Positions 39,218 through 46,115 of a DNA stretch of 64,000 nt are shown here, piece by piece (position 1 is the first letter of the stretch; every line of letters starts with the position of its first letter). Made by a program: the position numbers and the translations under genes. Source of the stretch: Albugo candida (lineage: Eukaryota); assembly GCA_040437565.1 (NCBI GenBank), contig JBDOQK010000047.1, positions 124,001 to 188,000 of the forward strand. The letters run 5' to 3'. The notes below the pieces were generated by a model that saw only the letters and a program-made list of their open reading frames with translations, had not been told where the DNA came from and did no database searches.

Positions 39218-41636
39218 ATGACCACGAATGGCTGGCTCATTGGTCTTCAATTGGCATCCAAAGCGTCTCGAACATTGTCACGTTCCAACTTTCCATCTTT
39301 ATGCAGTGCAAAGAATCATCGAGTAGGAAGCATGCTGCCAAGCATTCTGCAATATTCGCCTTTAACGTCATATCACGGAGATCGATTGTACTCAAACGAG
39401 ACGAAAACGGATACACACTCTCATACTCAAATTGCACATGAGATCAGTGAATCAATTCGATTGGTATCGACAACGGCTTTGCTCCCAAAGACCATGAATG
39501 ATATCCGAATACTACTACGAACCTGTCAAGAAGCACATTTGCAACAGAGCGCAATACCACTTTGCAAGCTTATTGTTCAAAAAAAGATACTAGATGACCG
39601 TGGATTGATTCTGCAGACGATGCGAATAGCACGAGGCGTTGGTTCCAAGGAATTGATTCTCGAATTGATTGCATTATTACAAAAGCATCCCACGGATGAA
39701 ATATGGAAAGAACGAGGTGTTGTTGCAGGACTCATCCACTCTTGCATACGTCTAGAACTGTTTGAAGCTGGTTTACAAGCACATGAGATCTTGAAGAAAC
39801 ATGGAATCGAAATTGACAAAAGTGTAAAAGCCGAAATGCTCTGTTTATACGTAATAAAGAATCCAACTGCAAACATGAGTAGAATCCTCGAATCTGACCA
39901 AGTTTCCGACTTTTCCTCCAAGCAGCTGCAAATGATTGTGAGAGAGCTTCTGCGATACGAAAACAGCGATGGAGCCATTCGCCTTATCGAGCACTGCAAT
40001 GTGGATCTCAATGTGGCGCGATACACAAAGCTCATTGACGTTTGCTATCGAAAAGGAGATATTGAAAACGCGACAAAGTATGCAAAAGCTTTCTACCACT
40101 CCAATGCTTTTGATTCGAGTCTCAAATCTTACAATGCAGTGATACAAGTACATGGAAGAACGGGGCAACTTGCAAAAGCGTTTCAACTCTACGAGAAAAT
40201 GAAGAAACTCGGAGTCGCACCCAATGTGATCACACTCAAACGCATGTTGCACGCCGTTTACTTCGGAAGATATCCGTCANNNNNNNNNNNNNNNNNNNNN
40301 NNNNNNNNNNNNNNNNNNNNNNNNNNNNNNNNNNNNNNNNNNNNNNNNNNNNNNNNNNNNNNNNNNNNNNNNNNNNNNNTCCTCCAAGCAGCTGCAAATG
40401 ATTGTGAGAGAGCTTCTGCGATACGAAAACAGCGATGGAGCCATTCGCCTTATCGAGCACTGCAATGTGGATCTCAATGTGGCGCGATACACAAAGCTCA
40501 TTGACGTTTGCTATCGAAAAGGAGATATTGAAAACGCGACAAAGTATGCAAAAGCTTTCTACCACTCCAATGCTTTTGATTCGAGTCTCAAATCTTACAA
40601 TGCAGTGATACAAGTACATGGAAGAACGGGGCAACTTGCAAAAGCGTTTCAACTCTACGAGAAAATGAAGAAACTCGGAGTCGCACCCAATGTGATCACA
40701 CTCAAACGCATGTTGCACGCCGTTTACTTCGGAAGATATCCGTCATTTGACGTAAAAATAACCAAATATACGCTGTTGGGATTAGGAGCAATGGGTGCGG
40801 GTTTGGTGCCTTTCATGCAGCTACAGGAACATTATCTGACGACGCTGTTCATTGCTAGCGTTTTGGGATCTATGAGTCTGGCGATTTACATGGTACCAAA
40901 TGGTGTCATGCGTTCTCTCTATCCGGATGTCACAAAGCCTCGAAAAGGAGACATCATCAATGCGTTCTTTCGTCGTTTAAGTGAGGAAGGTCATGCTGGA
41001 CGTGCAATGTATCTTTGGCGAGAAATGATAAAATGGAATGTTGCTCCCGACGCTTCCATCACTGATATTTTCGTCCGCGTCTGTATCCGTAAACGACACC
41101 CGGAATACGCATACAACACGCTCTACAGCGCTTTGGCAGAAACATCATTGGAGAAACAGACATTTCGATTATCAGCTTCTACCACCACTCACCTCATCCA
41201 TTCTTTGATCTCACAATCGCGAACTCAAATGGCGTCCGAGGTGTTTCGTACAGCGAGAGAACAAAAGACATTTACGAAGATATTTCATGAGGAACACACA
41301 ACACATTGGTACGAATTAAGCAAGATTCCGTCCGTCTGCGCGACAAGCTTTTTCATCTCACAAATACTCGCAACAATTCGCGAGAAATTCGCTTCTGATG
41401 CTTCAGTGATTCCACGCGTAGAGTTTACCGTCTGGAATGCAATACAAGTGTTGGATCATTTGGATGAGCATGAACCCGCAATTCGCGCACTCTTCTCAAT
41501 CGATCAACTCACTCTAAAACGACAAAATGCGAGACCGTCTCACCTGTTGGAATCCAGCAATATGGACTCTGTGAAATTGACGGCATCTCCTCAGCAGCTC
41601 CGTTGCTTTATTTCAGCACATCCAAACACGCAATGA
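39218..41636 (+). CDS. Pentatricopeptide-repeat protein, probably mitochondrial, with an internal hydrophobic hairpin; artefactual duplication at the gap
   Basis: SYNAVIQVHGRTGQLAKAFQLYEKMKKLGVAPNVIT and AMYLWREMIKWNVAPD PPR motifs. Confidence 0.85.
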
Positions 41637-41690
41637 CAAACAAAGGAGAACACATTCCTGTGACCAGGTACAAGGCGATTTTAGGTTGAA

Positions 41691-43907
41691 TTAGATAGTC
41701 AGCGATGTCGAACTCGCGTTATCAAATCGCAAGCTCAACTGCTTTTTCTTTAGAAATTCGATCACGCTCATGAGTTGTGGATCTCTTGGATCATTCATTC
41801 CACTTCGTTCCAGGTATCGTATGACGTCTCGGAATGACTTTAGCTGCTCTTTTGCAGTGAGCAACGGAATTGCTTCTTCCTCACCCAATTCTCCGACACC
41901 GTTATGTTCCATTCCAAGCGCATCGGGGATCTTGAATTCTTCATCATTCACTTGTGGATCCTCAATGATGTCTTCATTCAGTCGTTTATGTATATCGTTC
42001 TCCCATCGCGAGTTTACAAGGACTTTGGTATTTACAATTCCGCTCAACTGGAGACAATACAACAAATTCCACAATTCTTCTTCAACGNNNNNNNNNNNNN
42101 NNNNNNNNNNNNNNNNNNNNNNNNNNNNNNNNNNNNNNNNNNNNNNNNNNNNNNNNNNNNNNNNNNNNNNNNNNNNNNNNNNNNNNNTTGCTTCTTCCTC
42201 ACCCAATTCTCCGACACCGTTATGTTCCATTCCAAGCGCATCGGGGATCTTAAATTCTTCATCATTCACTTGTGGATCCTCAATGATGTCTTCATTCAGT
42301 CGTTTATGTATATCGTTCTCCCATCGCGAGTTTACAAGGACTTTGGTATTTACAATTCCGCTCAACTGGAGACAATACAACAAATTCCACAATTCTTCTT
42401 CAACGTTTTTCTCGTCCGTTGGCTCCAATTTACCGTCAAATTCAAATGGATAATTAAGTCCAAGCGGTTTCCACGCATTCAAAATGACTTCTCGAGGCAC
42501 TTGATGCCACGATTCTGTGATCCATCGCATCGCTTGCAATTGTGTGACACGATATATATCCGACATTCCATCTTCCAAGTGATCAATCGCCAATGTCAAA
42601 TGCTTCAAACGATACTTTCCCTTGAACGCTGCCATGATACCACCACGCATTGGCTGAACTTTCATTCCAAGCTGAGGAGACACCATAATCACACGAACAT
42701 TTGTCAATTGAACGCAACCAAGTACATGTGATGGAGCATTATCCATCAACAACAAGACATTCCTATGCGCACTGGCCATCCTTGCGTTAAAGTCACGAAG
42801 CCATTGTTGGAAAATGAACACAGTCATACGAGATTTACTACTGCACATATACTGATACCCGGCTTGTGCTGCCGGCATATTGCGCATGGTTCGAGGTGGA
42901 AGAATATTGCCAATGATATAAGGATCCATCAAGTCACTTGCATCCGCATTCACCGCAAGTAATACTGTCAGTCGTGCTTCATCCACCAACATTGCTTGTG
43001 CGTCATCTCCATGGACCAATTTACTCGGAGGCGCTCGATAGAAAAGCCCGCTTTCATCGACAGTATACAAATCATTGGAAGCATAATTTCGCAATATCAT
43101 TTGTATCTGTTCCAATGGAAGATCAGCAGACACAGGAGGCAATGCATACGCCGGAGAATCATCAACACCACTCAGAATCATACTTGGACCTTCCACGAAA
43201 CTCGGCGGGCCTTCATGATTACTCAATCCAACATGAGGGGAACTACTTTGTGTGGAAATGCTCGTTGATACCGGTAATCGGTCTGTCAAATTGGGTCCTC
43301 GACGTATGAGACCGTGACGCGTCTTGAATGACGCCAACCAGCCATTCGAAAACCCCAACTTTCCATCTAAACCCATTTGTTTTGCTAATTCACGTCCTTT
43401 ATTCTTGATCATATCGCCTGTGATATTGCCTTTTGCTTGTCGTTCCATCACCCAATTCGCTAACACTTGGTCAAAATGAGCGTGGCGTGTGGGTCGTATG
43501 GTCTTGCGATCTGCACCCAACGCGCCACCCAAACTATCGCGAAATAGATGTGCGTTTTTCAGGATATTTGACATTGTTGGCTGTGTCGGCGCTTTTTTCA
43601 GATTGAATTCCAATTTCGCCCAACGACATAAATCTTTTTGTGTGATTTTTGGTGTTGCACGATGTTTCTCACAAATTCTCCGCTTTTGTTCGATTGTCAA
43701 GTTTCCATTTCCGTCGCTTTTGCGCTTACGAGAAATCCCGTTTTTGTATTCGGTTGGGTCCAAAGAGAGGTCAGTGGGGCCCGAAACGGGTGATGACCCT
43801 AACACCGCATCTTGAGTCAGCGATTCCAATCCCAACGTCACATTTTCAGCTGTTAATGAAGGACCTAGTGGCACGGAAGTATTAGGACTTGAAGGTTTCT
43901 GCATCAT
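41691..43907 (-). CDS. pogo/Tigger transposase-derived CENP-B-like protein (two HTH domains plus DDE_1), probably domesticated
   Basis: LTIEQKRRIC..QKDL..WAK..F..P.QPTMSNILK; FSNGWLASFKTRHG; VDESGLFY; LLLMDNAPSH; QPMRGGI in place of QPxD; acidic tail. Confidence 0.85.
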   Translation of the reverse strand: MMQKPSSPNTSVPLGPSLTAENVTLGLESLTQDAVLGSSPVSGPTDLSLDPTEYKNGISRKRKSDGNGNLTIEQKRRICEKHRATPKITQKDLCRWAKLEFNLKKAPTQPTMSNILKNAHLFRDSLGGALGADRKTIRPTRHAHFDQVLANWVMERQAKGNITGDMIKNKGRELAKQMGLDGKLGFSNGWLASFKTRHGLIRRGPNLTDRLPVSTSISTQSSSPHVGLSNHEGPPSFVEGPSMILSGVDDSPAYALPPVSADLPLEQIQMILRNYASNDLYTVDESGLFYRAPPSKLVHGDDAQAMLVDEARLTVLLAVNADASDLMDPYIIGNILPPRTMRNMPAAQAGYQYMCSSKSRMTVFIFQQWLRDFNARMASAHRNVLLLMDNAPSHVLGCVQLTNVRVIMVSPQLGMKVQPMRGGIMAAFKGKYRLKHLTLAIDHLEDGMSDIYRVTQLQAMRWITESWHQVPREVILNAWKPLGLNYPFEFDGKLEPTDEKNVEEELWNLLYCLQLSGIVNTKVLVNSRWENDIHKRLNEDIIEDPQVNDEEFKIPDALGMEHNGVGELGEEEAXXXXXXXXXXXXXXXXXXXXXXXXXXXXXXXXXXVEEELWNLLYCLQLSGIVNTKVLVNSRWENDIHKRLNEDIIEDPQVNDEEFKIPDALGMEHNGVGELGEEEAIPLLTAKEQLKSFRDVIRYLERSGMNDPRDPQLMSVIEFLKKKQLSLRFDNASSTSLTI

Positions 43908-45095
43908 CGCGATGCGTAATAAACTTTGACGAGGTACAAGATTTCGCAACAGCGCCGTCGCGCAATTTTCAGTTTGATTTTGGCTATCACAAAAGGGGGA
44001 GGGGGAGGAAGAATGGAGGTGCGCGCGCCACATTTAATTTTATATTCCACCAATCAGCGGGTGGCAAAACAATTCTCAACCAGTCAAATGATAGCATGCT
44101 CATCATCGTTGATTGTTTGAAGTGATATCACCCTTCCTGTTGACCGATTCTAAATCCTTCTATAACAAGAGTAGTGTCACGCACATTAAATTATCTCTTG
44201 TTGACTATGATCCAATTTCGCGTTGAAGGATCACGGAATACGAGAGGAAGAAAAGATGGACGCTTCTATCGATCCTTCTCATTCATTCGAAATCAAACGT
44301 TCCACCGACGAGGTTTTCGTCAAAAGCTTCACGGGCATCCTCAACAAACGCGGATACAATCTAGAAGACGCGAATGCTTCAGACTCCAACTCGGTATCGA
44401 TCTTGAGCACGACCAGCCTAAATTCCAATTTTTCTTCAATCATCGCAAGCTTGCGTGAACCAATTCACGGACAGACCTCACTCCATCTCGCTTGTCGTAA
44501 AGGGGATCATCAAGTAGTTGACGCATTGATACGAAATGAATGTATTACGCAACTCATCGATCTGACGGACAATAATGGCAACACAGCATTGCATTTCGCT
44601 GTTTCGGCTCTCCGTTATCGGAAAAGCGAAGAAATCGTACAAAAGCTTTTGGATGCCGGTGCTTCGGTTCATGCTCGAAATTCCAAGTCACTTACACCAA
44701 TTGCGGTACACNNNNNNNNNNNNNNNNNNNNNNNNNNNNNNNNNNNNNNNNNNNNNNNNNNNNNNNNNNNNNNNNNNNNNNNNNNNNNNNNNNNNNNNNN
44801 NNNNNNNNNNNGTTTGATTTTGGCTATCACAAAAGGGGGAGGGGGAGGAAGAATGGAGGTGCGCGCGCCACATTTAATTTTATATTCCACCAATCAGCGG
44901 GTGGCAAAACAATTCTCAACCAGTCAAATGATAGCATGCTCATCATCGTTGATTGTTTGAAGTGATATCACCCTTCCTGTTGACCGATTCTAAATCCTTC
45001 TATAACAAGAGTAGTGTCACGCACATTAAATTATCTCTTGTTGACTATGATCCAATTTCGCGTTGAAGGATCACGGAATACGAGAGGAAGAAAAG

Positions 45096-46115
45096 ATGGA
45101 CGCTTCTATCGATCCTTCTCATTCATTCGAAATCAAACGTTCCACCGACGAGGTTTTCGTCAAAAGCTTCACGGGCATCCTCAACAAACGCGGATACAAT
45201 CTAGAAGACGCGAATGCTTCAGACTCCAACTCGGTATCGATCTTGAGCACGACCAGCCTAAATTCCAATTTTTCTTCAATCATCGCAAGCTTGCGTGAAC
45301 CAATTCACGGACAGACCTCACTCCATCTCGCTTGTCGTAAAGGGGATCATCAAGTAGTTGACGCATTGATACGAAATGAATGTATTACGCAACTCATCGA
45401 TCTGACGGACAATAATGGCAACACAGCATTGCATTTCGCTGTTTCGGCTCTCCGTTATCGGAAAAGCGAAGAAATCGTACAAAAGCTTTTGGATGCCGGT
45501 GCTTCGGTTCATGCTCGAAATTCCAAGTCACTTACACCAATTGCGGTACACGTTCTTACTCTAAAAGTGGATAATGCTGTTATTTTAGTGAAATTGCTGA
45601 AGAAGGGAGCAGCCGTAGAGACCGAAATTGAAGGAGATTCCATATTACACGTAGCTGTACGGCGACAGTTGAAATGTGTGGCTTCCACACTTGTCGAATA
45701 TGGAGCTTCTTTTATCTCTCTGAATCATTTGGGTCTAATGGCCTTTGAAATTGCTTCAGTACCCGTGCGTCAAGCGATGCTCTCTAGTATTGTAAGCATT
45801 CAACCATTTCTTTCAATAAATCAGCGGTTCAAATGTATGCGCTGCAACAGGGAATTGCTGACGCGTATTCGTCGAGTGTCATTGGCTTTAAATCGCTTAC
45901 TTCGACTTCCCGTTCGCGATCACAAGCATAACTGTTATCGATGTGGATTAATATATTGTGGTAAATGTGTCTGGTGTCGCCGCTTAACGCTTGGAATACC
46001 GATATTTTTACAGCGGGCTGAATCGGATGCAAAGTTGTGTAAATTACCAATCTGCTCGTTCTGTGATGCAACCTTATGGGAGCACCGCAATCGAAACAAA
46101 TTGGATCTATCCTGA
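45096..46115 (+). CDS. Ankyrin-repeat plus FYVE-like finger protein, paralog of 3148-4188 (the 5' copy at 44256-44711 is an assembly duplicate)
   Basis: QTSLHLACRKG, GNTALHFAV, LTPIAVHVLTLKVD; CMRC..KHNCYRCGLIYCGKC..ICSFC. Confidence 0.85.
   Translation: MDASIDPSHSFEIKRSTDEVFVKSFTGILNKRGYNLEDANASDSNSVSILSTTSLNSNFSSIIASLREPIHGQTSLHLACRKGDHQVVDALIRNECITQLIDLTDNNGNTALHFAVSALRYRKSEEIVQKLLDAGASVHARNSKSLTPIAVHVLTLKVDNAVILVKLLKKGAAVETEIEGDSILHVAVRRQLKCVASTLVEYGASFISLNHLGLMAFEIASVPVRQAMLSSIVSIQPFLSINQRFKCMRCNRELLTRIRRVSLALNRLLRLPVRDHKHNCYRCGLIYCGKCVWCRRLTLGIPIFLQRAESDAKLCKLPICSFCDATLWEHRNRNKLDLS

What the first reader, a model, noticed from the sequence alone, without database searches (positions are those of the whole stretch)
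41691..43907. Probably domesticated pogo transposase (CENP-B-like) with a broken catalytic triad
Seen: intact ORF with both HTH domains and DDE_1. The first two acidic residues are present (VDESG, MDNAPSH) but the third motif reads QPMRGGI, with Arg (about 42645-42647) replacing the Asp of QPxD. The gene is packed between host genes (54 nt from the PPR stop), I see no terminal inverted repeats, and it has an acidic region plus a helical C-terminal segment as in CENP-B. Known: pogo transposases were domesticated independently in mammals (CENP-B, TIGD, JRK) and fission yeast (Abp1/Cbh1/Cbh2). Inference: a further domestication acting in centromere, silencing or transcription control.
Basis: partly seen in the sequence, partly recalled or inferred. 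Interest (0 to 1): 0.65.

Follow-up and report, generated by a model that had tools for sequence, protein, structure and literature searches.

The report
Pan-oomycete domesticated pogo transposase gene
This Albugo gene is a former pogo "jumping gene" enzyme that lost a catalytic residue, stopped moving and has been kept as a highly conserved, probably DNA-binding host protein in all major groups of oomycetes, although its cellular job is still unknown.

Summary
The gene at 41691..43907 (-) has two CENP-B-type HTH domains and a DDE_1 domain. It reads D..D..R, with the Arg codon at 42645-42647. It lies 54 nt from a PPR gene and has no TIRs. One correction: in the window the ORF runs through a 100-N gap (42088-42187) flanked by a 218-nt duplicate. 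This is an assembly artefact that doubles the acidic segment. Contigs of four public runs and a 674-aa database protein show the real gene is intact (632 aa from the ATG at 43907).

The domestication reading is strongly supported. Orthologues occur in 21 named oomycete species, and their tree follows the species tree. They are 65-73% identical to Albugo, against 38-47% for both flanking genes. Every clade row that aligns there lacks the third Asp (R, or H in Saprolegniales, Y in one paralogue). The PPR-pogo-ankyrin order is kept in A. laibachii, and linkage is kept in Nothophytophthora and Lagenidium. The closest relatives with an intact triad are about 35% identical; one of them (L001) is a TIR-flanked transposon with a C-terminal PCNA-box-like motif. 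The clade lacks that motif.

The likely role is a non-catalytic, sequence-specific DNA-binding nuclear factor. A centromere role is untested. I found no paper describing this gene.

The parts
41691..43907 (-). Pogo-derived gene as it stands in the window. True CDS = these coordinates minus the 318-nt artefact, giving 1899 nt and 632 aa; single exon.
   Evidence: ORF; collinear with orthologues without gaps; bridging contigs; P0242
42088..42405 (.). Assembly artefact inside the ORF: 100 N (42088-42187) plus a redundant 218-nt copy (42188-42405, duplicate of 41870-42087).
   Evidence: D2; joint 41869->42188 in 4 of 4 runs; 1 mismatch, synonymous
43560..43700 (-). First HTH (CENP-B N-terminal / Abp1-N type), preceded by a basic RKRK patch that is a putative NLS.
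   Evidence: Pfam HTH_ABP1_N E 1.3e-3, below cut-off; 1hlv E 1.4e-6; Foldseek 1hlv_A TMt 0.71; 86% mean identity to 14 orthologues. The NLS is inference.
43302..43472 (-). Second HTH (HTH_Tnp_Tc5).
   Evidence: Pfam E 1.3e-9, 38.4 bits against a cut-off of 22.2; 82.5% mean identity
42459..43136 (-). RNase H-like DDE/D transposase core (Pfam DDE_1 covers its later part), with D-104-D-31-R in place of D-104-D-31-D.
   Evidence: Pfam DDE_1 E 1.4e-30; pLDDT above 90; Foldseek Mos1, Metnase and Sleeping Beauty; spacing; 75% mean identity
43056..43058 (-). First catalytic Asp (VDESG), retained.
42741..42743 (-). Second catalytic Asp (MDNAPSH), retained.
42645..42647 (-). Arg (CGT) at the position of the third catalytic Asp (QPMRGGI against QPxDxGI).
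42264..42419 (-). Conserved post-DDE helical segment (EEELWxLLYCLQLSG...NSRWENDIHKRLNED).
   Evidence: 77% mean identity; helices in the models
41715..41855 (-). Conserved C-terminal helical hairpin. The protein ends ...TSLTI and lacks the aromatic pair of the PCNA-box-like motif found in transposon-type relatives.
   Evidence: helices 78-98 and 103-124 of P0002, pLDDT about 70-84; 82% mean identity; PIP-like motif in 0 of 43 clade rows against 58 of 157 other rows
40398..41636 (+). Convergent neighbour: PPR-repeat protein, 3' part (the 5' part is at 39218-40279, before another gap and duplicate). Conserved neighbour of the pogo-derived gene.
   Evidence: Pfam PPR_2 E 7.9e-22; locus-tag adjacency in A. 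laibachii and Nothophytophthora
45096..46115 (+). Divergent neighbour: ankyrin-repeat ('myosin-like') protein. A truncated duplicate copy lies at 44256-44711, before the gap at 44712.
   Evidence: Pfam Ank E 5e-17; consecutive accession in A. laibachii

Best explanation
The gene is a stationary, single-exon host gene derived from a pogo-superfamily (DD31D-type) transposase. It was domesticated before the split of Saprolegniales and Peronosporomycetes and has been inherited vertically in oomycetes since then.

Shown: it keeps the bipartite CENP-B-type HTH DNA-binding region, the RNase H-like core and a C-terminal helical module, all under strong constraint. It has lost the third catalytic Asp (Arg in Albugo, Pythiales and Peronosporales; His in Saprolegniales), the TIRs, and the C-terminal PCNA-box-like motif of its transposon relatives.

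Inferred mechanism: the protein enters the nucleus through its basic patch. It binds a specific DNA motif with the two HTH domains, whose 82-86% identity across orders suggests a conserved target. It can no longer complete metal-dependent cleavage and strand transfer. The dead catalytic core and the C-terminal helices serve as an oligomerisation or partner-recruiting scaffold. On this view it acts as a chromatin or transcription factor rather than a transposase. Which loci it binds is unknown; candidates are TE remnants, promoters or centromeres.
For: Family: DDE_1 E 1.4e-30 and HTH_Tnp_Tc5 E 1.3e-9; CENP-B and Abp1 DNA-binding domains at E 1e-6 to 1e-5. The model has pLDDT above 90 in its folded parts, and its best Foldseek matches are Mos1, CENP-B(1-129), Metnase and Sleeping Beauty.

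Triad: of 190 aligned homologues, 102 read DDD. Of 45 clade rows, 41 have R at the third column, 2 have H, 1 has Y and 1 fragment is unaligned. No row outside the clade has R. Spacing is D-104-D-31-R in 41 of 42 clade rows, against D104D31D in the nearest DDD relatives.

Vertical descent: in a tree of 43 chosen rows the clade of 24 has SH-aLRT support of 100 and a stem length of 1.88. Its branching order is Saprolegniales, then Albugo, then Lagenidium/Pythium, then Globisporangium, then Phytophthora/Peronospora/Bremia. End branches are 0-0.2 inside the clade (1.29 for the paralogue P0044) and about 0.8-2.4 outside it.

Constraint: identity to A. laibachii is 96%, against 74% for the PPR neighbour and 83% for the ankyrin neighbour. 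Identity to other orders is 65-73%, against 38-41% and 39-47%. Folded domains are 75-86% identical and linkers 21-32%. All 3 differences from other isolates' contigs, and the single difference between the duplicate copies, are synonymous.

Stationary: no TIRs, whereas 5 of 7 control loci have them. No second copy in the window. Conserved neighbours by locus tag or accession.

Loss of a transposon feature: a PIP-like C-terminal box occurs in 0 of 43 clade rows and 58 of 157 other rows. The pogo transposase C-terminus binds PCNA (PMC4231638, passages read).

Weak hint of transcription: the 3,997-nt contigs of X4 (labelled 'RNA?') and X8 (kind not on record) stop at 43995, 88 nt upstream of the ATG, where the DNA contigs go on. 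The run kinds are guesses, and the two runs may be one data set.
Against: No Ka/Ks could be computed because no orthologue DNA was available. Whole-genome copy number in this species could not be checked because no genome is held. DNA binding, nuclear location, oligomerisation and loss of catalysis are all inferred, not shown. His at the third position in Saprolegniales could in principle still bind a metal. Microsynteny is not universal: in P. oligandrum and P. ramorum the ankyrin gene is 47 and 24 locus tags away, and in P. insidiosum it is on another contig. Some species carry extra copies (two in P. ramorum, a divergent paralogue in Nothophytophthora). No listed run is on record as RNA.
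Confidence: 0.85

Rival explanations
1. It is specifically a CENP-B analogue: it binds a motif in oomycete centromeric repeats or LTR elements and helps CENP-A chromatin or heterochromatin assembly.
For: Same domain plan as CENP-B and Abp1/Cbh. Short acidic segment and C-terminal helical hairpin. Pogo-like transposases have repeatedly become CENP-B-related proteins (PMC4231638, abstract and passages).
Against: No data on its targets. In P. infestans the motifs bound by five other CENPB-type HTH proteins are not enriched at centromeres (PMC11267843, passage); the orthologue of this gene was not among the seven proteins cloned. The acidic stretch is only about 28 residues and poorly conserved at 32%. 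It is not orthologous to CENP-B: its nearest relatives are DD31D transposase-like proteins at about 35%, at least one of them in a TIR-flanked element.
Confidence: 0.1
2. The RNase H-like core is still an enzyme. With two Asp plus Arg/His it would cut or nick DNA in a host process such as recombination, repair or programmed cleavage.
For: The core is as conserved as the DNA-binding domains (75%). The first two Asp are kept in 42 of 45 clade rows. Saprolegniales have His, a possible metal ligand.
Against: Arg cannot coordinate Mg2+. Vertebrate domesticated pogo genes likewise replace the third Asp (TIGD2 DD34S, JRKL DD34D/N; PMC7386202 Table 1, passage). The paralogue P0044 has also lost the first Asp.
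Confidence: 0.07
3. It is an ordinary pogo transposon copy, active or recently immobilised, that merely landed between host genes.
For: Full-length transposase architecture. Automatic names such as 'Tigger transposable element-derived protein 6'. Supplementary file 2 of PMC11267843 lists 14 CENPB-type proteins in A. laibachii, so real pogo elements may exist in Albugo.
Against: No TIRs (with positive controls). Orthologues beside the same neighbours in other genera. The tree follows the species tree with very short branches. The triad is broken in every clade row that aligns at that column.
Confidence: 0.02

Closest known systems
Vertebrate Tigger-derived genes (TIGD2, JRKL, JRK and others)
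   Same: Stationary pogo-derived genes with CENP-B_N + HTH_Tnp_Tc5 + DDE_1, high identity across a large clade, and often a substituted third Asp (TIGD2 DD34S, JRKL DD34D/N) (PMC7386202 Table 1, passage). They are full-length proteins with the core retained and mostly unknown function.
   Different: Independent origin: arthropod jerky-like proteins are only 22-24% identical. Spacing is DD31 and the substituting residue is Arg/His. The host range is oomycetes, a group with 0 mentions in that paper's main text.
Mammalian CENP-B
   Same: Bipartite HTH DNA-binding domain: 1hlv E 1.4e-6; Foldseek TMt 0.71, rmsd 3.1 A, 27% identity. It has a pogo-derived DDE_1 core without transposition, and an acidic region followed by a C-terminal helical module.
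   Different: Not an orthologue. The acidic stretch is much shorter. Dimerisation and centromere binding are untested here.
Fission-yeast Abp1/Cbh1/Cbh2
   Same: Pogo-derived, with an Abp1-N-type first HTH (1iuf E 8e-6; Pfam HTH_ABP1_N E 1.3e-3). They are host genes reported to silence retrotransposons and to act at centromeres (PMC10799480, passages).
   Different: Independent domestication in a different eukaryotic supergroup. No functional data exist for the oomycete gene.
DD31D pogo-like relatives (L001; P0055, P0056, P0058, P0060, P0062)
   Same: About 31-37% identity over HTH + DDE, identical D-104-D-31 spacing, and a collinear C-terminal region.
   Different: These keep DDD and a terminal PIP-like box. 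L001, the only one whose flanks were examined, has 25-nt TIRs starting TACAGT. The window gene has none of these features.

Membership tests
pogo superfamily transposase (descent) | DDE_1 RNase H-like catalytic core | tested here: met
   Pfam PF03184 E 1.4e-30, 106.6 bits against a cut-off of 22; Foldseek Mos1, Metnase and Sleeping Beauty
pogo superfamily transposase (descent) | Two N-terminal HTH domains (CENP-B_N type + HTH_Tnp_Tc5) | tested here: met
   HTH_Tnp_Tc5 E 1.3e-9. The first HTH scores below the Pfam cut-off (18.8 against 22.5 bits), but it matches 1hlv residues 7-130 and Foldseek gives TMt 0.71.
pogo superfamily transposase (active element) | Complete DDxD triad | tested here: not met
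   D, D, R with spacing 104/31. DDD occurs in 102 of 190 homologues; R occurs only in the clade.
pogo superfamily transposase (active element) | Terminal inverted repeats (and TA target duplication) | tested here: not met
   No bracketing inverted repeat better than 15-19 nt at 74-87%. 5 of 7 control loci show 25-31-nt TIRs. Terminus pattern: 5 hits against 3.5 expected, none flanking the gene.
pogo superfamily transposase (active element) | Multiple dispersed copies | tested here: inconclusive
   No second copy in the 64-kb window. No whole genome is held.
pogo superfamily transposase (active element) | C-terminal PCNA-binding (PIP-like) box | tested here: not met
   0 of 43 clade rows against 58 of 157 other rows. 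PCNA binding of pogo transposase comes from PMC4231638 passages. The motif pattern itself is recalled.
domesticated transposase gene | Orthologues across a wide clade whose tree follows the species tree | tested here: met
   21 named species in 4 orders; clade support 100 and species-like order (43 chosen rows, quick search)
domesticated transposase gene | Conserved genomic position | tested here: met
   A. laibachii: G10299 (PPR), G10300 (CCA25406, pogo-derived) and CCA25407 (ankyrin) are consecutive. Nothophytophthora: BBJ28_00002116 and _00002118. Two unnamed pairs list the same longest-contig lengths (21,047 and 21,969 bp). Lagenidium: N0F65_008137 and _008144. This is inferred from tags and contig lengths, not from DNA, and is looser in three other species.
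domesticated transposase gene | Purifying selection (Ka/Ks well below 1) | tested here: inconclusive
   Ka/Ks was not computable. Proxies are strong: 65-73% identity against 38-47% for the neighbours; 4 of 4 intraspecific differences synonymous; domains conserved far more than linkers.
domesticated transposase gene | Expression | tested here: inconclusive
   Only a weak hint from contigs of runs whose kind is guessed or not on record. No listed holder is on record as RNA.
CENP-B-like centromere protein (function) | Binds a centromeric DNA motif or co-localises with CENP-A | not testable with these tools
   No ChIP or binding data. The orthologue is absent from the P. infestans PBM set.
CENP-B-like centromere protein (function) | C-terminal dimerisation domain | tested here: inconclusive

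The most novel reading that the evidence does not exclude
The gene is an essential, pan-oomycete genome-surveillance or centromere factor. Its almost invariant HTH pair would recognise relics of the ancestral pogo TIRs (or LTR/centromeric repeats). The Arg-plugged dead core and the C-terminal hairpin would recruit silencing or kinetochore machinery. That would make it a fourth independent, and by far the oldest, CENP-B/Abp1-like invention. It would also be a lineage-specific protein conserved in every major oomycete pathogen.
Probability: 0.15. Interest if true: 0.75.

Novelty: new member of a known kind. Interest (0 to 1): 0.55.

Why it matters
Pogo transposases are the classic example of repeated domestication (CENP-B, TIGD/JRK, Abp1/Cbh). 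All the cases named in the papers I read are from animals or fission yeast.

This case sits in stramenopiles. It appears to pre-date the split of the two main oomycete lineages, and it is more conserved than both of its flanking host genes. That suggests an important nuclear function that has not been studied.

Oomycetes include major crop and animal pathogens whose centromere and TE-control biology is only beginning to be described. A conserved, lineage-specific DNA-binding factor is a concrete handle for ChIP and knock-out work.

The case also gives a natural series at the third catalytic position (D in transposons; H, R and Y in the clade), together with loss of the PCNA-box-like tail. This series could help work out what a transposase must lose to become a host gene.

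Practical point: this assembly's 100-N gaps carry duplicated flanks, and these corrupt gene models.

Tried and rejected
- Whole-genome copy count: no genome is held for this window.
- Expression: no RNA holder is listed on record. Only guessed-kind contigs could be laid.
- Orthologue DNA for Ka/Ks: the metagenome scan with alignment A1 gave 428 relatives, the best at 35% identity, and no orthologue.
- P. infestans protein-binding-microarray study: none of its seven cloned CENPB-type fragments is the orthologue. A conserved 12-residue peptide of the orthologues was absent from its supplementary tables, and I read all seven fragment sequences.
- Synteny through the fused MFS + pogo gene model of Peronospora belbahrii (P0021): no MFS gene among the 8 neighbouring ORFs scanned in the window.
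- ESM Atlas on the C-terminal 131 aa: the nearest clusters are unnamed or 'Jerky-like (Fragment)' arthropod clusters (score 0.94, recognition 1808, below the 2300 that 91 in 100 proteins of known families reach). This is a lead only, consistent with a tail inherited from the transposase.
- C-terminal structure model: mean pLDDT 62, too weak for a fold search.
- Active-site geometry: model coordinates are not exposed to scripts.
- Earlier findings of this scan: none by place, sequence or words.
- Casola et al. 2008 (PMC2268608) is not held.
- Prior description of an oomycete pogo domestication: not found, nor in passages of PMC7325037, PMC4231638, PMC7386202 and PMC10799480. The last of these explicitly removed oomycete genes. 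Supplements of those four papers were not read.
- Rejected: the longer ORF from ATG 44033, because orthologues start at the MMQKPSSPNT motif.
- Rejected as probably chance: the 17-nt direct repeat flanking the ORF (D15).
Full report
**1. What is in the window**

A minus-strand ORF runs from the ATG at 43907 (an in-frame upstream ATG lies at 44033) to a stop at 41691-41693. The window has 14 scaffold gaps of exactly 100 N, and one of them (42088-42187) lies inside this ORF. The gap is flanked by a 218-nt direct duplicate (41870-42087 = 42188-42405, family D2). The two copies differ at one synonymous base. So the 'intact ORF' of the window contains 34 unknown codons and shows the acidic segment twice.

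I laid contigs of 4 of the 24 listed public runs on 41300-44400. All four join 41869 directly to 42188, skipping 318 nt, which is 106 codons. A 674-aa Logan protein (P0242, seen on 5 contigs) sits in the same 90% cluster as the A. laibachii orthologue. It is 100% identical to both window pieces (P0001, P0002) and carries the duplicated segment once.

The real gene is therefore uninterrupted. It is 674 aa from ATG 44033, or 632 aa from ATG 43907. The gene is collinear with its orthologues and has no sign of introns.

**2.

- Pfam gives DDE_1 (E 1.4e-30), HTH_Tnp_Tc5 (E 1.3e-9) and a sub-threshold HTH_ABP1_N (E 1.3e-3).
- The whole HTH region matches the solved DNA-binding domains of human CENP-B (1hlv, E 1.4e-6) and S. 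pombe Abp1 (1iuf, E 8e-6).
- An AlphaFold2 model built on 130 sequences has mean pLDDT 76.5, pTM 0.71 and pLDDT above 90 in the folded parts.
- Its best Foldseek matches in the PDB are Mos1 mariner transposase (E 6e-5), CENP-B(1-129) (TMt 0.71, rmsd 3.1 A, 27% identity), and the Metnase/SETMAR and Sleeping Beauty catalytic domains.
- VDESG, MDNAPSH and QPMRGGI are present, and the Arg codon (CGT) is at 42645-42647, exactly as stated.
- The convergent neighbour is a PPR protein ending at 41636, 54 nt away. The divergent neighbour is an ankyrin-repeat protein. An ABC transporter and zf-HIT, PH, RCC1 and inositol-phosphatase-like genes fill the surroundings. This is gene-dense host DNA with no other pogo-like sequence in the 64 kb.

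**3. Is the triad really broken?**

I aligned 190 homologues of at least 330 aa. The three columns read DDD in 102 rows. All 39 DDR rows belong to the orthologue clade. Of the 45 clade rows, 41 have R at the third column, the two Saprolegniales rows have H, one divergent paralogue (P0044) has Y and has also lost the first Asp, and one fragment does not align. No sequence outside the clade has R.

Spacing is D-104-D-31-R in 41 of 42 clade rows, and the nearest DDD relatives are D104D31D. This lies within the DD29-42D range reported for the Tigger, pogoR and Lemi families (PMC7386202, passage).

The window codon is CGT. Asp (GAT) to His (CAT) to Arg (CGT), and His (CAT) to Tyr (TAT), are single-base steps. 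One ancestral loss followed by lineage-specific changes is therefore possible. This is inference.

**4. No transposon ends**

Within 40500-45500 the only inverted pairs that bracket the ORF are 15-19 nt at 74-87% complementarity, and they lie inside coding sequence.

As a positive control I ran the same tool on 7 of the 80 metagenome loci that carry distant pogo-like genes. I chose loci with sequence on both sides of the gene. Five of them (L001, L005, L016, L019, L036) show 25-31-nt TIRs, 93-97% complementary, beginning TACAGT and lying 2.0-2.6 kb apart. Two (L013, L031) show none that bracket the gene.

A 12-nt terminus pattern with up to 2 mismatches occurs 5 times in the window against 3.5 expected, and never next to the gene.

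**5. Orthologues and descent**

The word-indexed search listed 50 proteins.

- A. laibachii is 96% identical.
- Phytophthora, Peronospora, Bremia, Nothophytophthora, Pythium, Globisporangium and Lagenidium are 61-73% identical (65-73% for most).
- Thraustotheca is 52% and Aphanomyces 48% identical.

In all, 21 named species in four orders are represented.

The exhaustive search of 1.84 billion representatives found 6,866 relatives. After the clade's own representative, the divergent paralogue P0044 (54%) and three 67-75% fragments, identity falls to 39% or less.

I built a maximum-likelihood tree of 43 chosen rows: 24 clade rows and 19 more distant relatives (quick search, SH-aLRT). The clade has support 100 on a stem of length 1.88. 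Its internal order matches the accepted oomycete phylogeny. End branches are 0-0.2 inside the clade (P0044 excepted, 1.29) against about 0.8-2.4 for the outside rows.

Domestication therefore pre-dates the Saprolegniales-Peronosporomycetes split. From recalled molecular-clock literature, not checked here, that is several hundred million years.

**6. Position**

The PPR neighbour is 100% identical to Albugo candida ABG067_005843, which names the organism. The table gives the neighbours' positions in other species.

| Species or assembly | Evidence of linkage |
|---|---|
| A. laibachii | PPR AlNc14C296G10299, pogo-derived AlNc14C296G10300 (CCA25406) and ankyrin CCA25407 are consecutive, in the same order as the window |
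| Nothophytophthora | PPR BBJ28_00002116 and pogo-derived BBJ28_00002118; both list a 56,448-bp longest contig |
| Two unnamed assemblies | PPR and pogo-derived proteins list the same longest-contig lengths (21,047 and 21,969 bp) |
| Lagenidium | ankyrin gene 7 locus tags away; both list a 59,268-bp longest contig |
| P. ramorum | ankyrin gene 24 tags away, same chromosome-scale contig length |
| P. oligandrum | ankyrin gene 47 tags away, same chromosome-scale contig length |
| P. insidiosum | different longest-contig lengths (58,372 and 85,510 bp) |

This is indirect evidence, from tags and contig lengths rather than DNA. It still argues for a stationary locus at least since the Albugo-Peronosporales split.

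**7. Constraint**

Ka/Ks could not be computed because no orthologue DNA was available. The metagenome scan gave none, and no genome is held. The proxies are consistent.

| Comparison | Pogo-derived gene | PPR neighbour | Ankyrin neighbour |
|---|---|---|---|
| A. candida with A. laibachii | 96% | 74% | 83% |
| Albugo with other orders | 65-73% | 38-41% | 39-47% |

Conservation is modular. Mean identity of the window protein to 14 Peronosporomycete orthologues (15 rows chosen, including Thraustotheca) is as follows:

| Region | Mean identity |
|---|---|
| HTH1 | 86% |
| HTH2 | 82.5% |
| Core | 75% |
| Post-core helices | 77% |
| C-terminal hairpin | 82% |
| N-terminus | 21% |
| Linker | 23% |
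| Acidic segment | 32% |

All 3 differences between the window and other isolates' contigs are synonymous, as is the single difference between the duplicate flanks.

**8. A further loss**

A motif of the form Q-x-x-[ILMV]-x-x-[FYHW]-[FYW] in the last 40 residues occurs in 58 of 157 non-clade homologues. Many of those rows are fragments, so this is a lower bound. In most hits the motif ends within 6 residues of the C-terminus. It occurs in 0 of 43 clade rows.

Drosophila pogo transposase has a C-terminal PCNA-binding domain (Warbrick et al. 1998, as cited in passages of PMC4231638). The clade proteins end ...KKKQLSLRFDNASxxTLTI. In alignment A1 this tail lies over the start of the box, and the aromatic pair is missing.

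L001 is the closest metagenome relative at 35% identity. It encodes a 529-aa DDD protein ending in a related Q-x-x-L-x-x-F-L tail that does not fit the pattern, and it has 25-nt TIRs. So the clade lacks three features seen in its transposon relatives: the ends, one catalytic residue and the PCNA-box-like tail.

**9. How it most likely works**

Shown:
- The DNA-binding architecture is intact and extremely conserved.
- The core is conserved but mutated at a catalytic position.
- A C-terminal helical hairpin is conserved (helices at residues 78-98 and 103-124 of P0002, pLDDT about 70-84, in a model whose mean pLDDT is only 62).

Inferred:
- The basic patch gives nuclear import.
- The HTH pair binds a specific DNA motif.
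- Arg cannot ligate Mg2+, so there is no transposition chemistry.
- The core and hairpin act as a scaffold for oligomerisation or partner recruitment.

The biological process is open: TE or repeat surveillance as for Abp1/Cbh, transcription control, or centromere function.

One relevant data set is the P. infestans protein-binding-microarray study. It found that other CENPB-type HTH proteins bind GTTTAAC/GTTAAC-like palindromes that are not enriched at centromeres (PMC11267843, passage). The orthologue of this gene was not among its seven constructs.

**10. Comparison and novelty**

The closest known kind is the set of vertebrate Tigger-derived genes, which often carry a substituted third Asp (TIGD2 DD34S, JRKL DD34D/N; PMC7386202 Table 1, passage). 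CENP-B and Abp1/Cbh are functional analogies only.

The oomycete clade is an independent event. Its nearest relatives are DD31D transposase-like proteins at about 35% identity, one of which (L001) sits in a TIR-flanked element. Arthropod jerky-like proteins are only 22-24% identical.

Databases label members 'HTH CENPB-type domain-containing protein' or 'Tigger transposable element-derived protein 6'. I found no paper describing a conserved domesticated pogo gene in oomycetes. This rests on the searches, and on passages of PMC7325037, PMC4231638, PMC7386202 and PMC10799480. The supplements of those four papers were not read and could list it.

Verdict: a real and well-supported case, a new member of a known kind, of moderate interest.

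Noticed in passing
window 40280-40379, 42088-42187, 44712-44811 (and 11 further 100-N gaps): At least three of the 14 gaps of exactly 100 N are flanked by direct duplicates of the adjoining sequence: about 115 codons of the PPR gene, 218 nt of the pogo-derived gene, and at least 300 nt at 43972-44271 = 44812-45111, which includes the start of the ankyrin gene. Overlapping contig ends were scaffolded instead of merged, so ORFs in this assembly are artificially extended or duplicated.
   Followed up: partly
window 41658-41674 and 43924-43940: A 17-nt direct repeat (88% identical, CTGTGACCAGGTACAAG / CTTTGACGAGGTACAAG) sits 17 nt beyond the stop codon and 17 nt upstream of the ATG, so it brackets the ORF symmetrically. 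It is direct, not inverted, and is probably chance.
   Followed up: no
window 43880-43907 (first 9 codons): The N-terminal motif M(M)QKPSSPNT is conserved from Albugo to Pythium, Nothophytophthora and Phytophthora (MPSSPNT), although the rest of the N-terminal 58 residues is only 21% conserved. It may be a short linear motif, such as an S-P phosphosite or a degron.
   Followed up: no
P0044 (Nothophytophthora BBJ28_00018212): A divergent paralogue (about 50% identity, 533 aa) branches inside the clade after Saprolegniales. It has also lost the first Asp (VGEAG) and has Tyr at the third position. It was seen in only one named species.
   Followed up: partly
P0016 / P0022 (P. ramorum PRNP1_002489 and PRNP1_001924): Two almost identical copies are annotated with the same 12.67-Mb longest-contig length in one P. 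ramorum assembly, suggesting a recent segmental duplication of the domesticated gene.
   Followed up: no
L001:4372-6707: This is an apparently complete pogo element in a 93.6-kb metagenome contig. It has 25-nt TIRs (96%), a 529-aa DDD transposase and a Q-x-x-L-x-x-F-L tail, and it is the closest metagenome relative of the oomycete gene (35% identity).
   Followed up: partly
P0021 (Peronospora belbahrii): A 1060-aa gene model fuses an MFS sugar transporter (residues 77-455) to the pogo-derived protein. It is probably an annotation run-on. No MFS gene lies near the gene in the Albugo window.
   Followed up: partly
P0054, P0061: The two nearest non-clade proteins by tree position also have altered triads (DDN and SAE) and come from unnamed Logan assemblies. 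They may be further independent domestications in unknown organisms.
   Followed up: no
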